From positions 35,092,001 to 35,156,000 of the forward strand of contig OX597827.1 in NCBI GenBank assembly GCA_951406725.2: a stretch of DNA of 64,000 nucleotides, given 5' to 3'. How positions within the stretch are numbered: the stretch's first letter is position 1; the number at the start of each line of letters is the position of its first letter. A program made the position numbers. This stretch comes from Octopus vulgaris. Lineage: Eukaryota. This document shows, piece after piece, positions 24,001 through 54,000 of this stretch.

Positions 24001-27000
24001 TATATACATATATACATATACATGTACATATATATATACATTTATATATACATATATACATATACATATATATACATATACATATATATATAGATATATA
24101 TATATATATATACATACACATATATGCATATATATATATATATATATATGCATGGGCAAACGGGATGACACTTGGCTGACCGGTTCGCGGAACACCTCTG
24201 AGACATCCGAATCGGCAATGTAACCCCGGTCTCGCACCATGTCCGCTCTACCTATATATACACATATACATATATACATATATACATACATATATATACA
24301 TATATATATATATATATATATATATATATATATATATATATATATACCGGAGTAAACACATAAATGTGAAACAAGGTGGAAAAAAGAGTACTCAAATACC
24401 AGTGGTAGAGTAATATGCTTTATTTAAAGCAGCAGAAAATTCAACAAAATCTGTTACTCTGAGTTTCTCGTTGCCGTTCATCAGACAGTTTTTGCTAGAA
24501 TGGAACCGATATATCAATTCAATCTAGACTCTTACAAACGCTACACCTTTAAAAAGAAATGGACTTGTTTGATTGGCCCTTTAGAAAAAACGGTCAATCT
24601 TCGAGCGATAAACAAAAAGGTCAAAAATATATGTATATATATATAAAACTTATAAAAATTATAAAATTCGAGGAAAAAACCTTACATTGAATAATATACA
24701 TATTGACATTAATGAAGAAAGTATAATTAAAGCTTAGAAATTAAACCTATTATAAATATTACACTGCAATACATATTTATGTTAACGTGTACATATATAT
24801 ATCAACATACACAGAAGGATGCGTGCCAACGCCATACATATACAGACGTATAAATATAAATCTGAAATATACACATAAATGCATGCGTACATATATTTAC
24901 GCAATCCGTCTCGCACGCAATTTAAAATCCTCTATGTAGCGATTCTCATATACTGAGTAAGGGGGGGGACGAAAGAAAGGAAGAGAGAGAAAAAGGAACG
25001 AAGAAGGGGGAAGGAAAAAAGATAAAAGAAAAAGGAGGGGTGGGGAAAAAAACGAAATAAGAAAAATTATGTATACAAGCTATGTAACGGCATTATTGAC
25101 ATGTATGGAGACATGTATACAAATACACAAGCTCGAATGGATACATACACATACAGTTGTGCATATGTGCTTAAGCACAAACATACGTCCACTTACACAT
25201 ACACAGATACGCATGTTACAAATACATATCCATACATATCCAAGATTCGAACCATCCACCAGTTATCCTTAGGAACTTAGTTAGCAATGTAGGTAGAAGA
25301 ATATCTTCAATTTCTTCGGACGAGGCAGCATTCCATAATGCTGCACCTTATTACGATAGTGCATTAAAGAATAGTGGATTCTCGGAGAAGATCCAGTACA
25401 ACCAGCTTAATGCTGATAATAATGCTGCACGAAGAACTAGGACCAGGAAAGTTTTGTGGTTCAACCCGACTTTCAATTTGGCCGTAAAGACTAATATAGG
25501 TAAGGAATTTTTGAGATTAGTCTCTAAGCATTTTAAGCAGGGTCATAAATTCTATAGGATATTTAATAGAAGAACCCTGAAGGTTAGCTATTCTTGTTGC
25601 AGAAACTTCGCCTCTTACATTAGCCAACATAATAGGAAGCTAATTGAGATTAGACATGGTGCCGAGCCCATTAAGAAATGCAATTGCCAAAACGAAAGCT
25701 CCTGTCCGTTAGAAGGGAAATGTCTAGTGAAAGGAGTAGTTTATAGAGCCAAGGTGCAAGTAGAAGGCTCATCGGAATACAAGACATACACAGGGGCTTC
25801 AGAAAATTCATTTAAAACAAGATTTTATTCTCATAAAAATTCATTTAAATACCCAGAGAATAGGAAGAGGACCAGCCTAGCAAAATATGTCTGGGAACTA
25901 AAAGAAAAGGAAGCCCCACCTTTCAACGTGACATGGAGCATTCTGGACAGGGCGGCACCATACAGGCATGGAGCATACAAAAATAATTTCAAGTGCAAAC
26001 TTTGCTTATTAGAAAAAATGTACATTTTATTCAAAGACAATAATTCTTTGAATCAAAGAAGTGAGCTAATGAACTTATGTAGGCACGCGGCTAAATTTAA
26101 AATGTCGAATATAAATATACCATATGGATAGAGTATATATTTTGTATTTTTGATTTTTGAAATTTTGATTTTGACTCTTGAGCTGTGAGCGCTACGATGG
26201 ATTTTGTTCCGCGTTATACAGATTTTAATCCGTATAGCAAAGTCTTATGTTTCGACATATACATTAGGAAAAACCTTCGAATTTGTTTATTTCAAATTAT
26301 TGTATTGTATAGGATTACCTTGATTTTTTATAGATGATCTAAAATAGGGTGTTATATTTTATTTTTATATGTCTTACGTATATATTTTAATTTTTTTTAT
26401 TATTGCACCGATTTCTTTAAAAAAAAGCAATGTTGTCAAAAATTAGAATTTATATATATGTGTATAGCCATGGATATGTATTTGTAAGCATGCGTATCTG
26501 TGTATGTGTAAGTGGACGTATGTTTGTGCTTAAGCACACATATGCACGACTGTATGTGTATGTATCCATTCGAGCTTGTGTATTTGTATACATGTCTCCA
26601 TACATGTCAATAATGCCGTTACCTAGCTTGTATACGTAATTTTTCTTATTTCGTTTTTTCCCCACCCCTCCTTTTTCTTTTTTCTTTTTTCCTTTCCCCT
26701 TCTTCGTTCCTTTTTCTCTCTCTTCCTTTCTTTCGTCCCCCCCTTACTCAGTATATGAGAATCGCTACATAGAGGATTTTAAATTGCGTGCGAGACGGAT
26801 TGCGTAAATATATGTACGCATGCATTTATGTGTATATTTCAGATTTATATTTATACGTCTGTATATGTATGGCGTTGGCACGCATCCTTCTGTGTATGTT
26901 GATATATATATGTACACGTTAACATAAATATGTATTGCAGTGTAATATTTATAATAGGTTTAATTTCTAAGCTTTAATTATACTTTCTTCATTAATGTCA

Positions 27001-51000: not shown

Positions 51001-54000
51001 TAGGGTCAGGGCGGGGTGGTGGGGGTGTTACTGATGCATTTAGCCCCAGGCGAACATCGACGTCACCAGAAGAGCTGACACCATCTCGGTGTCCTTGCCA
51101 GCCAGCAAAGGGAGATCAGCCTCCCCGAAGATACGGATACTACACACGGACCGGTTTCGAGGTTATTGCCTCTTGTCAACGTATGGTAAGCACCGCTCTT
51201 CGTTAAGGGACTTCCTCTACCGGCTGGATATATATAGATTTTCACAGTAACCACAGTCACTGGCGTAGAAAATCTGTTCGAAAACAATAATAAATCTCTG
51301 GGCGAGATATAAACAGTAACTGCTCTATAACATAAGAGGGATCAGCCATCTGAATGTGGCTAGGGTCAGGGCGGGGTGGTGGGGTGTTACTGATGCATTT
51401 AGCTCCAGGCGAACATCGACGTCACCAGAAGAGCTGACACCATCTTGGTGTCCTTGCCAGCCAGCAAAGGGAGATCAGCCTCCCCGAAGATACGGATACT
51501 ACACACGGACCGGTTTCGAGGTTATTGCCTCTTGTCAACGTATGGTAAGCACCGCTCTTCGTTAAGGGACTTCCTCTACCGGCTGGATATATATAGATTT
51601 TCACAGTAACCACAGTCACTGGCGTAGAAAATCTGTTCGAAAACAATAATAAATCTCTGGGCGAGATATAAACAGTAACTGCTCTATAACATAAGAGGGA
51701 TCAGCCATCTGAATGTGGCTAGGGTCAGGGCGGGGTGGTGGGGGTGTTACTGATGCATTTAGCCCCAGGCGAACATCGACGTCACCAGAAGAGCTGACAC
51801 CATCTCGGTGTCCTTGCCAGCCAGCAAAGGGAGATCAGCCTCCCCGAAGATACGGATACTACACATGGACCGGTTTCGAGGTTATTGCCTCTTGTCAACG
51901 TATGGTAAGCACCGCTCTTCGTTGAGGGACTTCCTCTACCGGCTGGATATATATAGATTTTCACAGTAACCACAGTCACTGGCGTAGAAAATCTGTTCGA
52001 AAACAATAATAAATCTCTGGGCGAGATATAAACAGTAACTGCTCTATAACATAAAAGGGATCAGCCATCTGAATGTGGCTAGGGTCAGGGACGTCGATGT
52101 TCGCCTGGGGCTAAATGCATCAGTAACACCCCCACCACCCCGCCCTGACCCTAGCCACATTCAGATGGCTGATCCCTCTTATGTTATAGAGCAGTTACTG
52201 TTTATATCTCGCCCAGAGATTTATTATTGTTTTCGAACAGATTTTCTACGCCAGTGACTGTGGTTACTGTGAAAATCTATATATATCCAGCCGGTAGAGG
52301 AAGTCCCTTAACGAAGAGCGGTGCTTACCATACGTTGACAAGAGGCAATAACCTCGAAACCGGTCCGTGTGTAGTATCCGTATCTTCGGGGAGGCTGATC
52401 TCCCTTTGCTGGCTGGCAAGGACACCGAGATGGTGTCAGCTCTTCTGGTGACGTCGATGTTCACCTGGGGCTAAATGCATCAGTAACACCCCCACCACCC
52501 CGCCCTGACCCTAGCCACATTCAGATGGCTGATCCCTCTTATGTTATAGAGCAGTTACTGTTTATATCTCGCCCAGAGATTTATTATTGTTGTATATATA
52601 TATATATATACATATACTAGCAGTATCGCCCGGCGTTGCTCGGGTTTGTAAGGGAAATAACTATATAAGCATTTTTAGAGATGTAAAGTATAATAGCCAT
52701 CTCAATATGGCTAACCGCAAAGGGGGGGTGTTACTGTAGCTTTTTACGTTCTGAGATTTAATAATACATTTTTAGAGAGTTACTTCCCTTATATATGCCA
52801 AAAATGCATTAAAAATGGGAAAAATTTATGGTAATTCTTTTTAAAAATCGTAGACTCATCGTAGACGCGCGCTAATACCCAGAAGGGCTCGATATGAATC
52901 ACGACTATAAGATACCCGGTTTTGGTTCAACTGCATCGCAAAATGTGGGAGTAGTTAGGAATCTAAATCGTAGGAGACAGACAGCACACAACCTCTCTTT
53001 TATATATAAAGATATATATATATATACATATAATGAAATTGTTAAATCTTCCAACTTATAAACTTGTGACTCTAAAACGAGTAAACTTGTGATTCTAAAA
53101 GAAAGACTATGACAATAGTTATGAAAAGATTCGTTCTGTTCTTTTTTTTCTTTCAGAAAACCTAATTACAACATCTGTAACAACAACAAGCGAAATAACA
53201 ACAGAAGAAGATACACAACCGGAAACAACTTCTATCACAGCGAAAACAGAATATACTCAAAACGCGGGGATAACTAGTAACATTGAAAGAGAAACAACTG
53301 ACGCAGTGAAAGTCACCAAGCCAGATTTCCATATAAAAACAGATGCCTCCCATGGAACAGATGACCAAAATAACAGACAAGACAGCACTAACCCAGTAGT
53401 TACGGGGCCTTGGATTGTTTTCACTAATGACAGTGTTAAGTACACCAGTACTCAGAAAACTACTCAGAAAATTACTCGGAAAGGAATAACTCCTGAGTAT
53501 AACAGTACTAGATACAACAGAAGTAGGGTCGATAATACTGTGGCCATTGGAAGTAAGTATAATTTTATTACTCAATGTTTATCATCGAAACACATCAATT
53601 ACAGGCCAGTCTTCACACGATGACCGTTGACTAGGAAATGATAGAACAAATAAGCAAACATATATACATGAATACATACATACATACATGCATACATACC
53701 TACATACATACATACATACATACATACATACATGACTAAAATAATAAATAAATGCGCCCTTTTAAAACCTAGCCAGACTCATGGGGCCGGTTTCCCGGTT
53801 TCTATGGCGTGTGTGTTCCTAGCTGGACGGGACGCCAGCTCATCGCAGAGTTACTCATTTTTGCCAGCTGAGTGGACTGGAACAACGTGAAATGAAGTGT
53901 TTTGCTCAAGAACACAATGCGTCGCCCGGTCCAGGAATCGAAACCACAATCTTACGATCATGATGCTGATATCCTAACCACTAAGCCACACGCCTCCACA

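What the first reader, a model, noticed from the sequence alone, without database searches (positions are those of the whole stretch)
24347..52592. Shared insertion architecture links the non-coding array to PLE machinery
Seen: both the coding PLE (24347-27286) and the non-coding array (50967-52592) consist of a main body plus an inverted segment at the element's 5' side. In both, the 3' ends face outward into a (TA)n tract and the inverted arm carries a longer terminal tail (~70 and ~45 nt). Inference: the same target-primed, two-ended integration mechanism made both, which would be footprint evidence for PLE mobilisation of retrozyme RNA. No sequence similarity between the two was seen, so the mobilising family is unidentified; the ACCGGT-stem hammerheads of the adjacent PLE pieces are closer in style.
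Basis: inference. Interest (0 to 1): 0.72.

Follow-up and report, generated by a model that had tools for sequence, protein, structure and literature searches.

The report
Ribozyme repeat array with PLE-style insertion
A 360-base tandem repeat carrying a hammerhead-like ribozyme sits in a TA microsatellite with the same head-to-head, uneven-ended layout as a nearby Penelope-like retrotransposon, which fits, but from one locus cannot prove, the published idea that Penelope-like elements copy such repeats around animal genomes.

Summary
24347-27286 is a 5'-truncated Hydra-clade Penelope-like element (PLE), keeping only the last ~292 codons (linker plus GIY-YIG endonuclease). It is joined head-to-head at 25233/25234 to an 887-nt inverted copy of its own 3' UTR. 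50966-52592 is 3.1 units of a 360-bp repeat joined head-to-head at 52090/52091 to 1.4 inverted units. Both lie between (TA)n tracts with RNA-sense 3' ends outward. In both, the shorter arm runs further (66-71 and 43-47 nt).

Each unit carries a type-I hammerhead-like motif on the minus strand, with a U3-A8 core pair. That covariation is published for PLE hammerheads; Rfam does not detect the motif.

The layout matches published PLE behaviour: (TA)n targets, an inverted 5'-truncated copy, a 'tail', and nicking and extension of both strands from two internal start sites. PLE-type mobilisation of a retrozyme-like RNA is therefore the best reading.

It rests on one locus, shows no 3'-end similarity to any PLE in the window, and depends on an untested ribozyme. 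A fold-back origin of the inverted units is not excluded. The hypothesis is already in print; only the footprint argument is new. No other genomic copies could be fetched.

The parts
24253..24346 (.). (TA)n tract, left flank of the PLE copy
   Evidence: TRF rows; sequence
24347..25233 (-). Inverted arm of the Hydra-clade PLE: a reverse-complement copy of the element's 3' UTR (= 26470-27286) plus the distal 3' end
   Evidence: 98.7% over 824 nt; match ends at 25233
24347..24417 (-). 'Tail': 66-71 nt present only on the inverted arm. It is the family's genuine distal 3' end and holds a hairpin kept in an older copy.
   Evidence: older copy at 46240-46466 has it contiguous with upstream 3' UTR; fold z -1.92 and -2.83
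25234..27286 (+). Main body of the 5'-truncated PLE: ORF remnant plus 3' UTR, ending at the proximal 3' end
25247..26131 (+). ORF remnant: RT thumb/linker with CxCX5C motif and a GIY-YIG endonuclease without the CCHH motif (Hydra-clade marks)
   Evidence: (57% identity to residues 420-711 of P0001); motif definitions from PMC8557442 section 11
27210..27259 (+). Hammerhead-like motif of the PLE: CUGAUGA...GAAA boxes at 27220-27240, near-palindromic helix III, 10-nt helix I with one mismatch. A second copy lies on the arm with boxes at 24464-24484 (-).
   Evidence: boxes; cofold of two copies; helices read by eye; not found by Rfam
27287..28367 (.). (TA)n-rich tract, right flank of the PLE copy
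49197..50453 (-). PLE piece B1: 5'-truncated Neptune-like PLE with frameshifts. It has a CX4CxxC linker, a GIY-YIG domain with internal cysteines, and a U3-A8 hammerhead-like motif near 49335-49365. Its 3' end faces (CT)n(TA)n.
   Evidence: (relatives carry RVT_1 and GIY-YIG)
50454..50510 (.). (AT)28 between B1 and B2
50511..50935 (-). PLE piece B2: the last codons of an endonuclease ORF plus a 3' UTR with an A3-U8 hammerhead-like motif (A-CCGG-U helix III) 61 nt from the 3' end
   Evidence: (27-nt match to the end of the B1 ORF, 0 of 200 shuffles)
50936..50969 (.). (TA)17, flank at the 3' end of the array's main body; 4-5 nt overlap with the unit's own UAUA
50966..52090 (-). Main body of the array: 3.1 units of 360 nt, RNA sense on the minus strand. 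The 5' end is at unit position 138 (52090) and the 3' end at unit position 179-183 (50970-50966).
52091..52592 (+). Inverted arm of the array: 1.4 units, RNA sense on the plus strand. The 5' end is at unit position 86 (52091) and the 3' end at unit position 226 (52591), plus one G.
52545..52592 (+). Stretch by which the arm outruns the main body (43-47 nt), the array's 'tail'
   Evidence: fold not distinguishable from shuffles (z -0.92, 39 of 200)
51143..51185 (-). Hammerhead-like motif of the unit: helix I 6 bp, core UUGACAA (U3/A8), helix II 4 bp with a 6-nt loop, GAAA, helix III A-CCGG-U, C17. Further copies lie at 51502-51544 (-), 51862-51904 (-, helix I broken by a G-to-A change) and 52329-52371 (+).
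   Evidence: (3 of 4 copies pass the descriptor)
52593..52617 (.). (TA)n flank at the 3' end of the inverted arm
52618..52998 (-). Neighbouring ~381-nt element C, itself between two (TA)n tracts. It has a ~58-nt stretch similar to unit positions 107-165 and may be a decayed single-unit relative.
   Evidence: (0 of 500 shuffles in 2 of 3 scoring schemes)
46240..46466 (+). Older copy of the 3' end of the same PLE family (79% over 102 nt), ending at the distal end and followed by (TG)n

Best explanation
Both loci are products of PLE-type retrotransposition into (TA)n microsatellites.

The first locus is an ordinary 5'-truncated Hydra-clade PLE with the family's usual inverted partner copy. The second is a non-coding, hammerhead-bearing 360-nt element of the 'non-LTR retrozyme' kind, copied in trans by a PLE enzyme.

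Proposed course (inferred, following Frangieh 2024 and Cervera & de la Pena 2020):
1. The array is transcribed. The RNA used as template is either an uncleaved multimer or a religated circle. This follows because each cDNA starts 181 or 226 nt downstream of a ribozyme cleavage site and then runs back through one to three such sites.
2. A PLE RT-endonuclease nicks both strands of a (TA)n tract.
3. Each 3'-OH primes cDNA synthesis at one of two internal start sites about 45 nt apart. The proximal start may be helped by UAUA/(TA)n pairing.
4. The two cDNAs (3.1 and 1.4 units) meet and are joined head-to-head with 1 nt of microhomology.

Shown here: the anatomy, the strand of the ribozyme-like motif, the (TA)n flanks and the unit variants. 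Inferred: every enzymatic step and the identity of the enzyme. The Neptune-like families with an A-CCGG-U/U3-A8 hammerhead are the nearest candidates, by ribozyme style only.
For: (1) Same anatomy at both loci: head-to-head junctions at 25233/25234 and 52090/52091, RNA-sense 3' ends outward, and (TA)n on both sides.

(2) For the PLE copy, a snap-back origin is excluded. The arm copies the 3' UTR, not the sequence next to the junction. Two independent 3'-end starts are therefore needed there.

(3) The extra 66-71 nt on the PLE arm is a genuine alternative 3' end. An older 79% copy at 46240-46466 has it contiguous with upstream 3' UTR. This matches 'two RT start sites = tail' (PMC11167929).

(4) Both proximal ends fall at an AUAU/UAUA in the element, giving a 4-5 nt overlap with (TA)n. 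Both distal ends show no overlap.

(5) The unit has a type-I hammerhead-like motif. GAAACCGGT gives 6 hits against 0.23 expected, and 0 of 100 shuffles reach 6. The U3-A8 two-box pattern gives 5 hits against 0.18, and 0 of 100 shuffles reach 5. A full descriptor hits only 3 of 4 unit copies plus B1 and B2, against 0.07-0.13 sites per core type in 30 shuffles. Two copies cofold into the dimeric hammerhead with an ACCGGU:ACCGGU helix III.

(6) The U3-A8 covariation is published for PLE hammerheads (PMC4209133). Across the four families in the window, position 3-8 is C-G, U-A, U-A and A-U, always complementary.

(7) All 6 substitutions and the 1 indel among the units are private to one unit, and 3 of the 6 are at CpG. 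This fits units made together and mutated afterwards.

(8) The interval 49127-53035 holds five separate pieces, each bounded by (TA)n, two of them certain PLE fragments.

(9) Unit size (360 nt) and GC (49%) fall within the ranges given for metazoan retrozymes (PMC7229834).
Against: - Only one array was seen. No second copy of the unit exists in the window, and none could be fetched from elsewhere.
- Rfam finds no hammerhead at gathering score in the window. It finds none at E<=10 in 50000-53500 or 24200-27400.
- The core is non-canonical and its activity is untested.
- The unit shows no similarity to any PLE 3' end in the window. Unit vs B1: 86 of 200 shuffles score as high. Unit vs B2: 34 of 200.
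- In a tandem repeat, the 'tail' is only a phase difference between two ends.
- The array's tail has no fold above shuffles.
- Tail lengths here (66-71 and 43-47 nt) exceed the 30-40 bp given in the literature.
- The array is also a 449-nt, 99% palindrome with a 52-nt spacer, which is what a fold-back gives.
- '3' ends outward' and 'tail on the shorter arm' are each 1-in-2 coincidences.
- The unit's 92-aa ORF has no relative in the protein collection, so there is no outside sign of other copies or of expression.
Confidence: 0.55

Rival explanations
1. Fold-back (snap-back) origin of the inverted units. The array arrived or grew in one orientation. A free 3' end, either of the first cDNA during insertion or of a broken DNA strand later, then folded back on itself and copied 450-500 nt. 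That end was then joined to the (TA)n on the right. On this reading the similarity to the PLE layout is coincidental for this feature.
For: - The array is a 449-nt, 99% palindrome with a 52-nt spacer.
- The junction has only 1 nt of microhomology.
- Because the units are tandem, the arm is a mirror of the sequence next to the junction, which is exactly what a fold-back predicts.
- The arm's outer end has no overlap with (TA)n and no special fold.
Against: - The same layout at the PLE locus cannot be a fold-back, because the arm copies the distal 3' UTR and not the adjacent ORF.
- Sequence beyond the (TA)n flanks is not duplicated in inverted form.
- The model needs an extra joining step to the right-hand (TA)n.
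- No variant is shared between the arm and its supposed template units, although the power of this test is low.
Confidence: 0.2
2. A local satellite, not a trans-mobilised element. A PLE-derived or other sequence that landed in this (TA)n was amplified in place by unequal crossing-over or replication slippage. This is the scenario discussed by Li et al. 2026. The ribozyme-like motif is an inherited relic.
For: - Li et al. (bioRxiv 10.64898/2026.07.22.740005, discussion) propose local amplification of PLE terminal sequence into tandem repeats.
- The neighbouring element C shares a ~58-nt stretch with the unit.
- The locus is full of PLE debris.
- No other copy of the unit was seen.
Against: - Unequal crossing-over does not make an inverted block.
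- 7 of 7 variants are private to one unit, with none shared by neighbours.
- The unit shows no similarity to the PLE pieces beside it.
- 3 of 4 units keep an intact motif with a complementary 3-8 pair.
- (TA)n abuts both outer ends exactly.
Confidence: 0.15
3. Mobilisation by a non-PLE reverse transcriptase, for example a LINE enzyme with twin priming on a multimeric RNA. This would also give an inverted 5' block. (Twin priming is recalled from the L1 literature and comes from no call.)
For: LINE-type RT fragments are present in the window: RVT_1 hits at 14505-14855(-) and 37973-38371(-). On a repeated template, internal priming by microhomology (the UAUA overlap) would look the same.
Against: - There is no poly-A or LINE-type tail and no recognisable target-site duplication at either end.
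- (TA)n targeting is described for Hydra, Naiad and Neptune-type PLEs (PMC8557442).
- The ribozyme style is that of PLEs.
Confidence: 0.05

Closest known systems
Hydra-clade Penelope-like elements (Craig et al. 2021, PMC8557442)
   Same: For 24347-27286:
[quoted passage not shown]
- a CxCX5C linker;
- no CCHH motif;
- CxxC and CxH around the conserved E and N;
- insertion into (TA)n;
- an inverted 5'-truncated partner and a tail.
Full-length relatives of ~700 aa carry RWK/RWR and DKT.
   Different: The window copy lacks the RT. Its tail is 66-71 nt rather than 30-40. Its hammerhead-like motif has an A.A at the base of helix II and is not picked up by Rfam.
Metazoan non-LTR retrozymes (Cervera & de la Pena 2020, PMC7229834; de la Pena et al. 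2020, PMC7761336)
   Same: - Non-coding tandem units of a few hundred nt (360 here; mussel ~350-390).
- GC below 50%.
- A type-I hammerhead with a 6-bp helix I, a 4-bp helix II and a 1-bp helix III capped by a palindromic loop.
- A predicted circular monomer that keeps helices I and II.
   Different: The core pair is U3-A8 instead of C3-G8. There is no Rfam match. Expression and circular RNA were not testable. An inverted block and (TA)n flanks are not described for retrozymes in the texts I read: 'inverted' occurs 0 times in PMC7229834, and in PMC7761336 and the 2026 preprint only in reference titles.
Poseidon PLE of Anolis (PAc) in vitro (Frangieh et al. 2024, PMC11167929)
   Same: It explains the layout: both DNA strands are nicked and extended, targets are AT-rich, RT starts at two internal sites whose spacing is the genomic tail, and the template is uncleaved multimeric RNA.
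   Different: It is a different PLE clade and host. The RT start there shows no homology to the target, whereas both proximal ends here overlap (TA)n by 4-5 nt. No trans-template was tested in that work.
Non-autonomous Chlamys elements such as MRC1 (Craig et al. 2021)
   Same: They are non-coding partners of PLEs that make pseudo-LTRs and multicopy head-to-tail insertions.
   Different: Those share their 3' ends with an autonomous family. The unit here shares none with any PLE in the window. Those are green-algal elements, most without hammerheads.
PLE minimal hammerheads with U3-A8 core (Cervera & de la Pena 2014, PMC4209133)
   Same: The same core covariation and a palindromic helix III meant to work as a dimer.
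   Different: Those are minimal motifs in pseudo-LTRs of coding PLEs of a flatworm. Here the motif has full-size helices I and II and sits in a short tandem repeat.

Membership tests
Penelope-like element, Hydra clade (for 24347-27286) | [quoted passage not shown] | tested here: met
   The window ORF aligns to residues 420-711 of the 713-aa P0001 (57% identity, E 2e-122). 27 proteins of 570-740 aa were found at E<=1e-3. P0001 and P0004 show RT-type motifs upstream. The Atlas neighbours include GIY-YIG clusters. The window copy itself is 5'-truncated and has no RT.
Penelope-like element, Hydra clade (for 24347-27286) | Linker CxCX5C, no CCHH inside the GIY-YIG core, CxxC and CxH around the conserved E and N | tested here: met
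   Read from the translation against the definition in PMC8557442 section 11. There is no cysteine between the VVY and YTG motifs.
Penelope-like element, Hydra clade (for 24347-27286) | N-terminal RWK motif and DKT instead of DKG | not testable with these tools
   That part is missing from the window copy. The closest full-length relatives have RWR/RWK and DKT (P0001 and P0004).
Penelope-like element, Hydra clade (for 24347-27286) | Canonical hammerhead in the non-coding part | tested here: inconclusive
   CUGAUGA...GAAA boxes lie at 27220-27240 and 24464-24484. The pattern gives 6 hits in the window against 2.05 expected, and 2 of 100 shuffles reach 6. Helices were read by eye and in a cofold. 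Rfam finds none at E<=10.
Penelope-like element, Hydra clade (for 24347-27286) | Insertion into (TA)n, inverted 5'-truncated copy, tail at one end | tested here: met
Non-LTR retrozyme (for 50966-52592) | Short non-coding tandem repeats (about 150-450 bp), GC below 50%, no LTR | tested here: met
   The period is 360 with 3.1 + 1.4 copies. GC is 0.49. The 92-aa ORFs have no Pfam family and no relatives.
Non-LTR retrozyme (for 50966-52592) | A type-I hammerhead ribozyme in each unit | tested here: inconclusive
   The architecture is met in 3 of 4 copies, and the fourth has one helix I change. The core has U3-A8 instead of C3-G8. There is no Rfam match. Cleavage is not testable here.
Non-LTR retrozyme (for 50966-52592) | Expressed, self-cleaved and circularised RNA | not testable with these tools
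   No transcript data were available. The only evidence is a prediction: circular monomer MFE -113.1 kcal/mol against a shuffle mean of -96.3, sd 5.1.
PLE-type insertion signature (for 50966-52592) | (TA)n target, inverted 5'-truncated copy at the 5' side, unequal 3' ends (tail) | tested here: met
   The tail is 43-47 nt; in a tandem repeat this is a phase difference.
PLE-type insertion signature (for 50966-52592) | Non-autonomous partner shares its 3' end with an autonomous PLE family | tested here: not met
   The unit shows no similarity to the Hydra-clade copy, B1 or B2 beyond CGAAACCGGT(C). Only the PLEs of this window could be compared.
LINE twin-priming product (for both loci) | Poly-A or LINE 3' tail at one end, target-site duplication, inverted block taken from an internal part of the same RNA | tested here: not met
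   There is no A-run or LINE tail at any of the 4 ends, and the flanks are (TA)n. In the PLE copy the inverted block includes the 3' terminus itself.

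The most novel reading that the evidence does not exclude
Retrozyme arrays are born whole in a single event. A PLE enzyme nicks both strands of a (TA)n tract and reverse-transcribes a circular or multimeric ribozyme RNA from two fixed internal start sites. Head-to-head arrays with a ~45-nt end offset would then be the enzyme's signature. This locus would be the first insertion-site evidence, as opposed to co-occurrence or sequence kinship, that names PLEs as the mobilisers of metazoan retrozymes. It would also mean that PLE enzymes can act on RNAs sharing no 3' sequence with them, perhaps recognising the U3-A8/ACCGGU hammerhead itself.
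Probability: 0.35. Interest if true: 0.65.

Novelty: new member of a known kind. Interest (0 to 1): 0.45.

Why it matters
Which enzyme moves metazoan retrozymes has been open since they were described. The 2020 papers name PLEs as 'a strong candidate' on the grounds of shared hammerhead type, tandem copies and co-occurrence (PMC7229834 discussion). [quoted passage not shown] A 2026 preprint adds sequence kinship between retrozymes and PLE pseudo-LTRs in Xenopus.

An insertion footprint is a different and directly countable kind of evidence. Its elements are (TA)n flanks, head-to-head arms and two discrete 3' end points. If it holds genome-wide, it would tie retrozymes to the both-strand, two-start-site mechanism shown in vitro for a PLE in 2024. 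It would also suggest that whole arrays arise in one step.

From this one locus it is only a testable lead. A specialist would not be surprised by it.

Tried and rejected
- **Rfam.** No family reached gathering score in the whole window. No hammerhead appeared at E<=10 in 50000-53500 or 24200-27400. The 'mir-584' rows at 52046-52187 (53.8 bits against a gathering score of 80) are the head-to-head palindrome, not a microRNA. B1 (49100-50000) was not scanned at the E-value threshold.
- **Pfam.** 78 ORFs were scanned: 78 of 108 stop-to-stop ORFs of >=90 aa passed a low-complexity filter. The PLE ORF had no family. The local Pfam copy also gave 0 families for 5 of 5 full-length relatives, although their precomputed labels list PF26215/PF28514.
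- **Other Hydra-clade pieces.** tblastn was run with all 27 relatives, but I printed rows for only 5 of them. Hits fell only at 25232-26122 and at a decayed remnant at 6703-7140(-).
- **Unit vs PLE pieces.** Nothing scored above shuffles. Tiles of the window outside the array peaked at a score of 29; no shuffle control was run for those tiles.
- **Unit vs right flank.** A permissive gap model gave no signal (158 of 300 shuffles; 247 of 500). Two stricter models gave 0 of 500. I keep only the ~58-nt match.
- **Supposed second copy of element C at 43124.** Rejected: 21 of 500 shuffles scored as high, and only ATATACTAGCAG is shared.
- **Unit ORF (92 aa) against the protein collection.** 4 candidates, none at E<=1e-3.
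- Its result is not used.
- **Tail of the array.** It shows no fold above shuffles.
- **Other copies.** Other copies of the unit remain unchecked.
- **Papers.** No supplementary file of any paper was opened. Craig 2021 files S1/S2 (family list, hammerheads) and the supplements of the 2026 preprint (closed) may bear on clade assignment and on retrozyme flanks.
- **Claim that the footprint is not in print.** This rests on searches and on the passages read. Subscription journals are not covered.

Full report
**What is at the two loci**

The window is AT-rich (GC 0.37) and full of microsatellites and transposon debris. The finding joins two places 23.7 kb apart that share no sequence.

**Locus 1 (24347-27286): anatomy**

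- An inverted repeat links 24413-25233 to 26470-27291. It is 555 nt at 100% plus 163 nt at 90%, and 98.7% over 824 nt.
- The match ends at 25233. The layout is therefore an 887-nt inverted arm, a head-to-head junction at 25233/25234, and a 2053-nt main body.
- The main body carries one ORF (25175-26131). It aligns at 57% identity to residues 420-711 of a 713-aa protein.
- Twenty-seven relatives of 570-740 aa were found. The two I printed carry RT-like motifs, RWR/RWK and DKT.

**Locus 1: clade and ribozyme**

- The window ORF has a CxCX5C linker. [quoted passage not shown] - These are the marks that Craig et al. 2021 give for the Hydra clade of PLEs (PMC8557442, section 11 read in full). That section also says almost all Hydra families insert into (TA)n.
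- The Atlas neighbours are eukaryotic GIY-YIG/HTH_animal clusters, most often cnidarian.
- The local Pfam copy sees nothing in the ORF or in its relatives.
- The copy therefore 'codes' only for the last ~292 residues; the RT is gone.
- The 3' UTR has CUGAUGA...GAAA boxes at 27220-27240, with a mirror copy at 24464-24484. They are flanked by a 10-nt helix I with one mismatch and a near-palindromic helix III. These helices were read by eye and are supported by the cofold. Rfam does not report the motif.

**Locus 1: the tail**

- The arm continues 66-71 nt beyond the point where the main body meets (TA)n.
- An older copy of the same 3' end (79% over 102 nt) at 46240-46466 has this stretch contiguous with the upstream UTR. 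It ends at the same distal point, there followed by (TG)n.
- The 'tail' is therefore a genuine distal 3' end, and the main body uses a proximal one.
- The tail holds a hairpin that is kept, with different loop letters, in both copies (z -1.92 and -2.83).

**Locus 2 (50966-52592): anatomy**

- TRF gives 3.1 copies of a 360-bp unit at 98%. The next 502 nt are the reverse complement of 1.4 units.
- (TA)17 abuts the left end and (TA)n abuts the right end.

**Locus 2: the ribozyme-like motif**

- GAAACCGGT occurs 6 times in the window against 0.23 expected. Four of these are in the array, on the minus strand in the 3.1-unit block and on the plus strand in the inverted block.
- A structural descriptor required a core, at least 2 bp of helix II, GAAA, a short helix III, H17 and at least 4 bp of helix I. 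It found a motif in 3 of the 4 unit copies.
- The motif has a 6-bp helix I, the core UUGACAA, a 4-bp helix II with a 6-nt loop, GAAA, and A-CCGG-U followed by C. The fourth copy has one G-to-A change in helix I.
- Shuffled windows gave 0.07-0.13 sites per core type (30 shuffles).
- This is the architecture that Cervera & de la Pena 2014 call canonical for metazoan type-I hammerheads: helix I 6 bp, helix II 4 bp, and helix III 1-2 bp with a palindromic loop (PMC4209133, passages).
- The difference is that positions 3 and 8 are U and A instead of C and G.
- C3 and G8 form a Watson-Crick pair in the active fold (PMC3884650, passage). A swapped pair keeps part of the activity in a PLE hammerhead (PMC11167929).
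- The U3-A8 covariation was reported in about 1,300 flatworm PLE-type motifs (PMC4209133).
- Two copies of the motif cofold into the dimeric hammerhead with an ACCGGU:ACCGGU helix III (-28.5 kcal/mol).
- The predicted circular monomer keeps helices I and II. Its MFE is -113.1 kcal/mol, against -96.3 (sd 5.1) for shuffles and -98.4 for the antisense strand.
- Rfam finds no hammerhead here even at E<=10. Activity is untested.

**Locus 2: polarity and ends**

- With the ribozyme strand as RNA sense, the 3.1-unit block is the main body (minus strand).
- Positions are counted from the predicted cleavage site. The main body runs from position 138 to position 179-183, where a UAUA overlaps (TA)n. The arm runs from position 86 to position 226.
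- The arm is thus 43-47 nt longer.
- Both ends lie well downstream of a cleavage site, and the cDNAs cross one to three such sites. The template was therefore uncleaved multimer or religated circle (inference).
- All 6 substitutions and 1 indel among the units are private to a single unit, and 3 of the 6 are at CpG. This fits units made together and mutated afterwards, though the power is low.

**Surroundings**

The array sits in a run of five pieces, each bounded by (TA)n (49127-53035):
1. B1 (49197-50453, minus strand) is a frameshifted PLE with a CX4CxxC linker and a cysteine-containing GIY-YIG core. Its relatives carry RVT_1 and GIY-YIG labels. It has a U3-A8 hammerhead-like motif.
2. B2 (50511-50935, minus strand) is the end of an endonuclease ORF plus a 3' UTR with an A3-U8 motif and the same A-CCGG-U helix III.
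3. The array's main body.
4. The array's inverted arm.
5. Element C (52618-52998) shares about 58 nt with the unit.

Across the four ribozyme-bearing families, the 3-8 pair is C-G, U-A, U-A and A-U. The unit shares nothing else with B1, B2 or the Hydra-clade copy.

**Comparison with what is known**

- Craig et al. 2021 describe, for PLEs in general, an inverted 5'-truncated copy next to the 5' end and a 30-40-bp tail at one end. They also describe a bias for microsatellites, (TA)n in Naiad and Hydra.
- Frangieh et al. 2024 show in vitro that a Poseidon PLE protein nicks and extends both strands of an AT-rich target. Reverse transcription starts at two internal RNA sites, the tail is the stretch between them, and uncleaved RNA is the main template.
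- Locus 1 is a textbook case of this. Locus 2 has every element of it.
- That PLEs mobilise metazoan retrozymes is a published hypothesis (PMC7229834 discussion; PMC7761336; PMC8557442). A 2026 preprint supports it through co-occurrence and kinship with pseudo-LTRs.
- In the texts I read and in searches, I found no report of (TA)n flanks, inverted arms or end offsets for retrozyme arrays.

**Weighing**

For the PLE-type reading:
- the anatomy is identical at both loci;
- a fold-back is impossible at locus 1;
- the (TA)n cluster is full of PLE pieces;
- the ribozyme is of PLE style;
- both proximal ends overlap (TA)n by 4-5 nt while both distal ends do not.

Against it:
- there is only one array;
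- in a tandem repeat, a tail is only a phase difference;
- the array is equally a 449-nt palindrome with a 52-nt spacer;
- the unit shows no 3' similarity to any PLE in the window;
- the ribozyme is untested and non-canonical;
- the two polarity coincidences are worth only about 1 in 4 together.

I put the PLE-type, two-ended insertion of a retrozyme-like RNA at 0.55. A fold-back origin of the inverted block stands at 0.2, a purely local satellite at 0.15, and another RT at 0.05.

**Verdict**

- The elements are new members of known kinds. The mechanism proposed is the published one. What is new is the idea of reading it from insertion footprints.
- A census of all copies in the genome would settle it. 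That census could not be run here.

Noticed in passing
52618-52998: A ~381-nt piece lies between two (TA)n tracts directly right of the array. Its minus strand shares a ~58-nt stretch with unit positions 107-165, including a small hairpin (AGCCA..UGGCU) kept with a compensating change. It also has a decayed CAAAACCGGGU where the unit has CGAAACCGGUC. It may be a dead single-unit relative of the array's family.
   Followed up: partly
27220-27240(+), 51143-51185(-), 49339-49359(-), 50565-50602(-): The four hammerhead-like motifs of four unrelated element families keep positions 3 and 8 complementary while changing the letters (C-G, U-A, U-A, A-U). U3-A8 is published for PLE motifs. I did not find A3-U8 in the passages I read, and it rests on one copy with a weak helix II.
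   Followed up: partly
46240-46466: An older copy (79%) of the 3' end of the Hydra-clade family ends at the distal (tail) end but is followed by (TG)n, not (TA)n.
   Followed up: partly
6703-7140 (-): A decayed remnant of a Hydra-clade-like endonuclease (about 30% identity to P0001 residues 564-711), with stops. No (TA)n was seen next to it in the stretch I read.
   Followed up: no
23036-28367: A 5.3-kb (TA)n-rich region holds the PLE copy. It also holds a 358-nt AT-rich insert (23161-23518, with a 36-nt duplication) and a 103-nt GC-richer insert (24150-24252), both of unknown nature.
   Followed up: no
52046-52187: Rfam 'mir-584' rows on both strands (51-54 bits against a gathering score of 80) are produced by the perfect palindrome at the array's head-to-head junction. 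They are an artefact, not a microRNA.
   Followed up: yes
34743-35227; 28370-28530; 43020-43106: SINE-like sequences with a tRNA-like part occur at these sites. One forms a 155-183-bp tandem. Two lie directly beside (TA)n tracts.
   Followed up: no
47560-47904 (+); 14505-14855 (-); 37973-38371 (-): Other transposon debris: a mariner-type HTH_48 domain (E 1e-21) and two RVT_1 fragments (E 3e-12 and 9e-8) in the Pfam scan.
   Followed up: no
proteins P0001, P0003, P0004, P0007, P0022: The precomputed labels list PF26215/PF28514 for most of these relatives. The local Pfam scan returns 0 families for all 5. This is a discrepancy between library versions, not biology.
   Followed up: no
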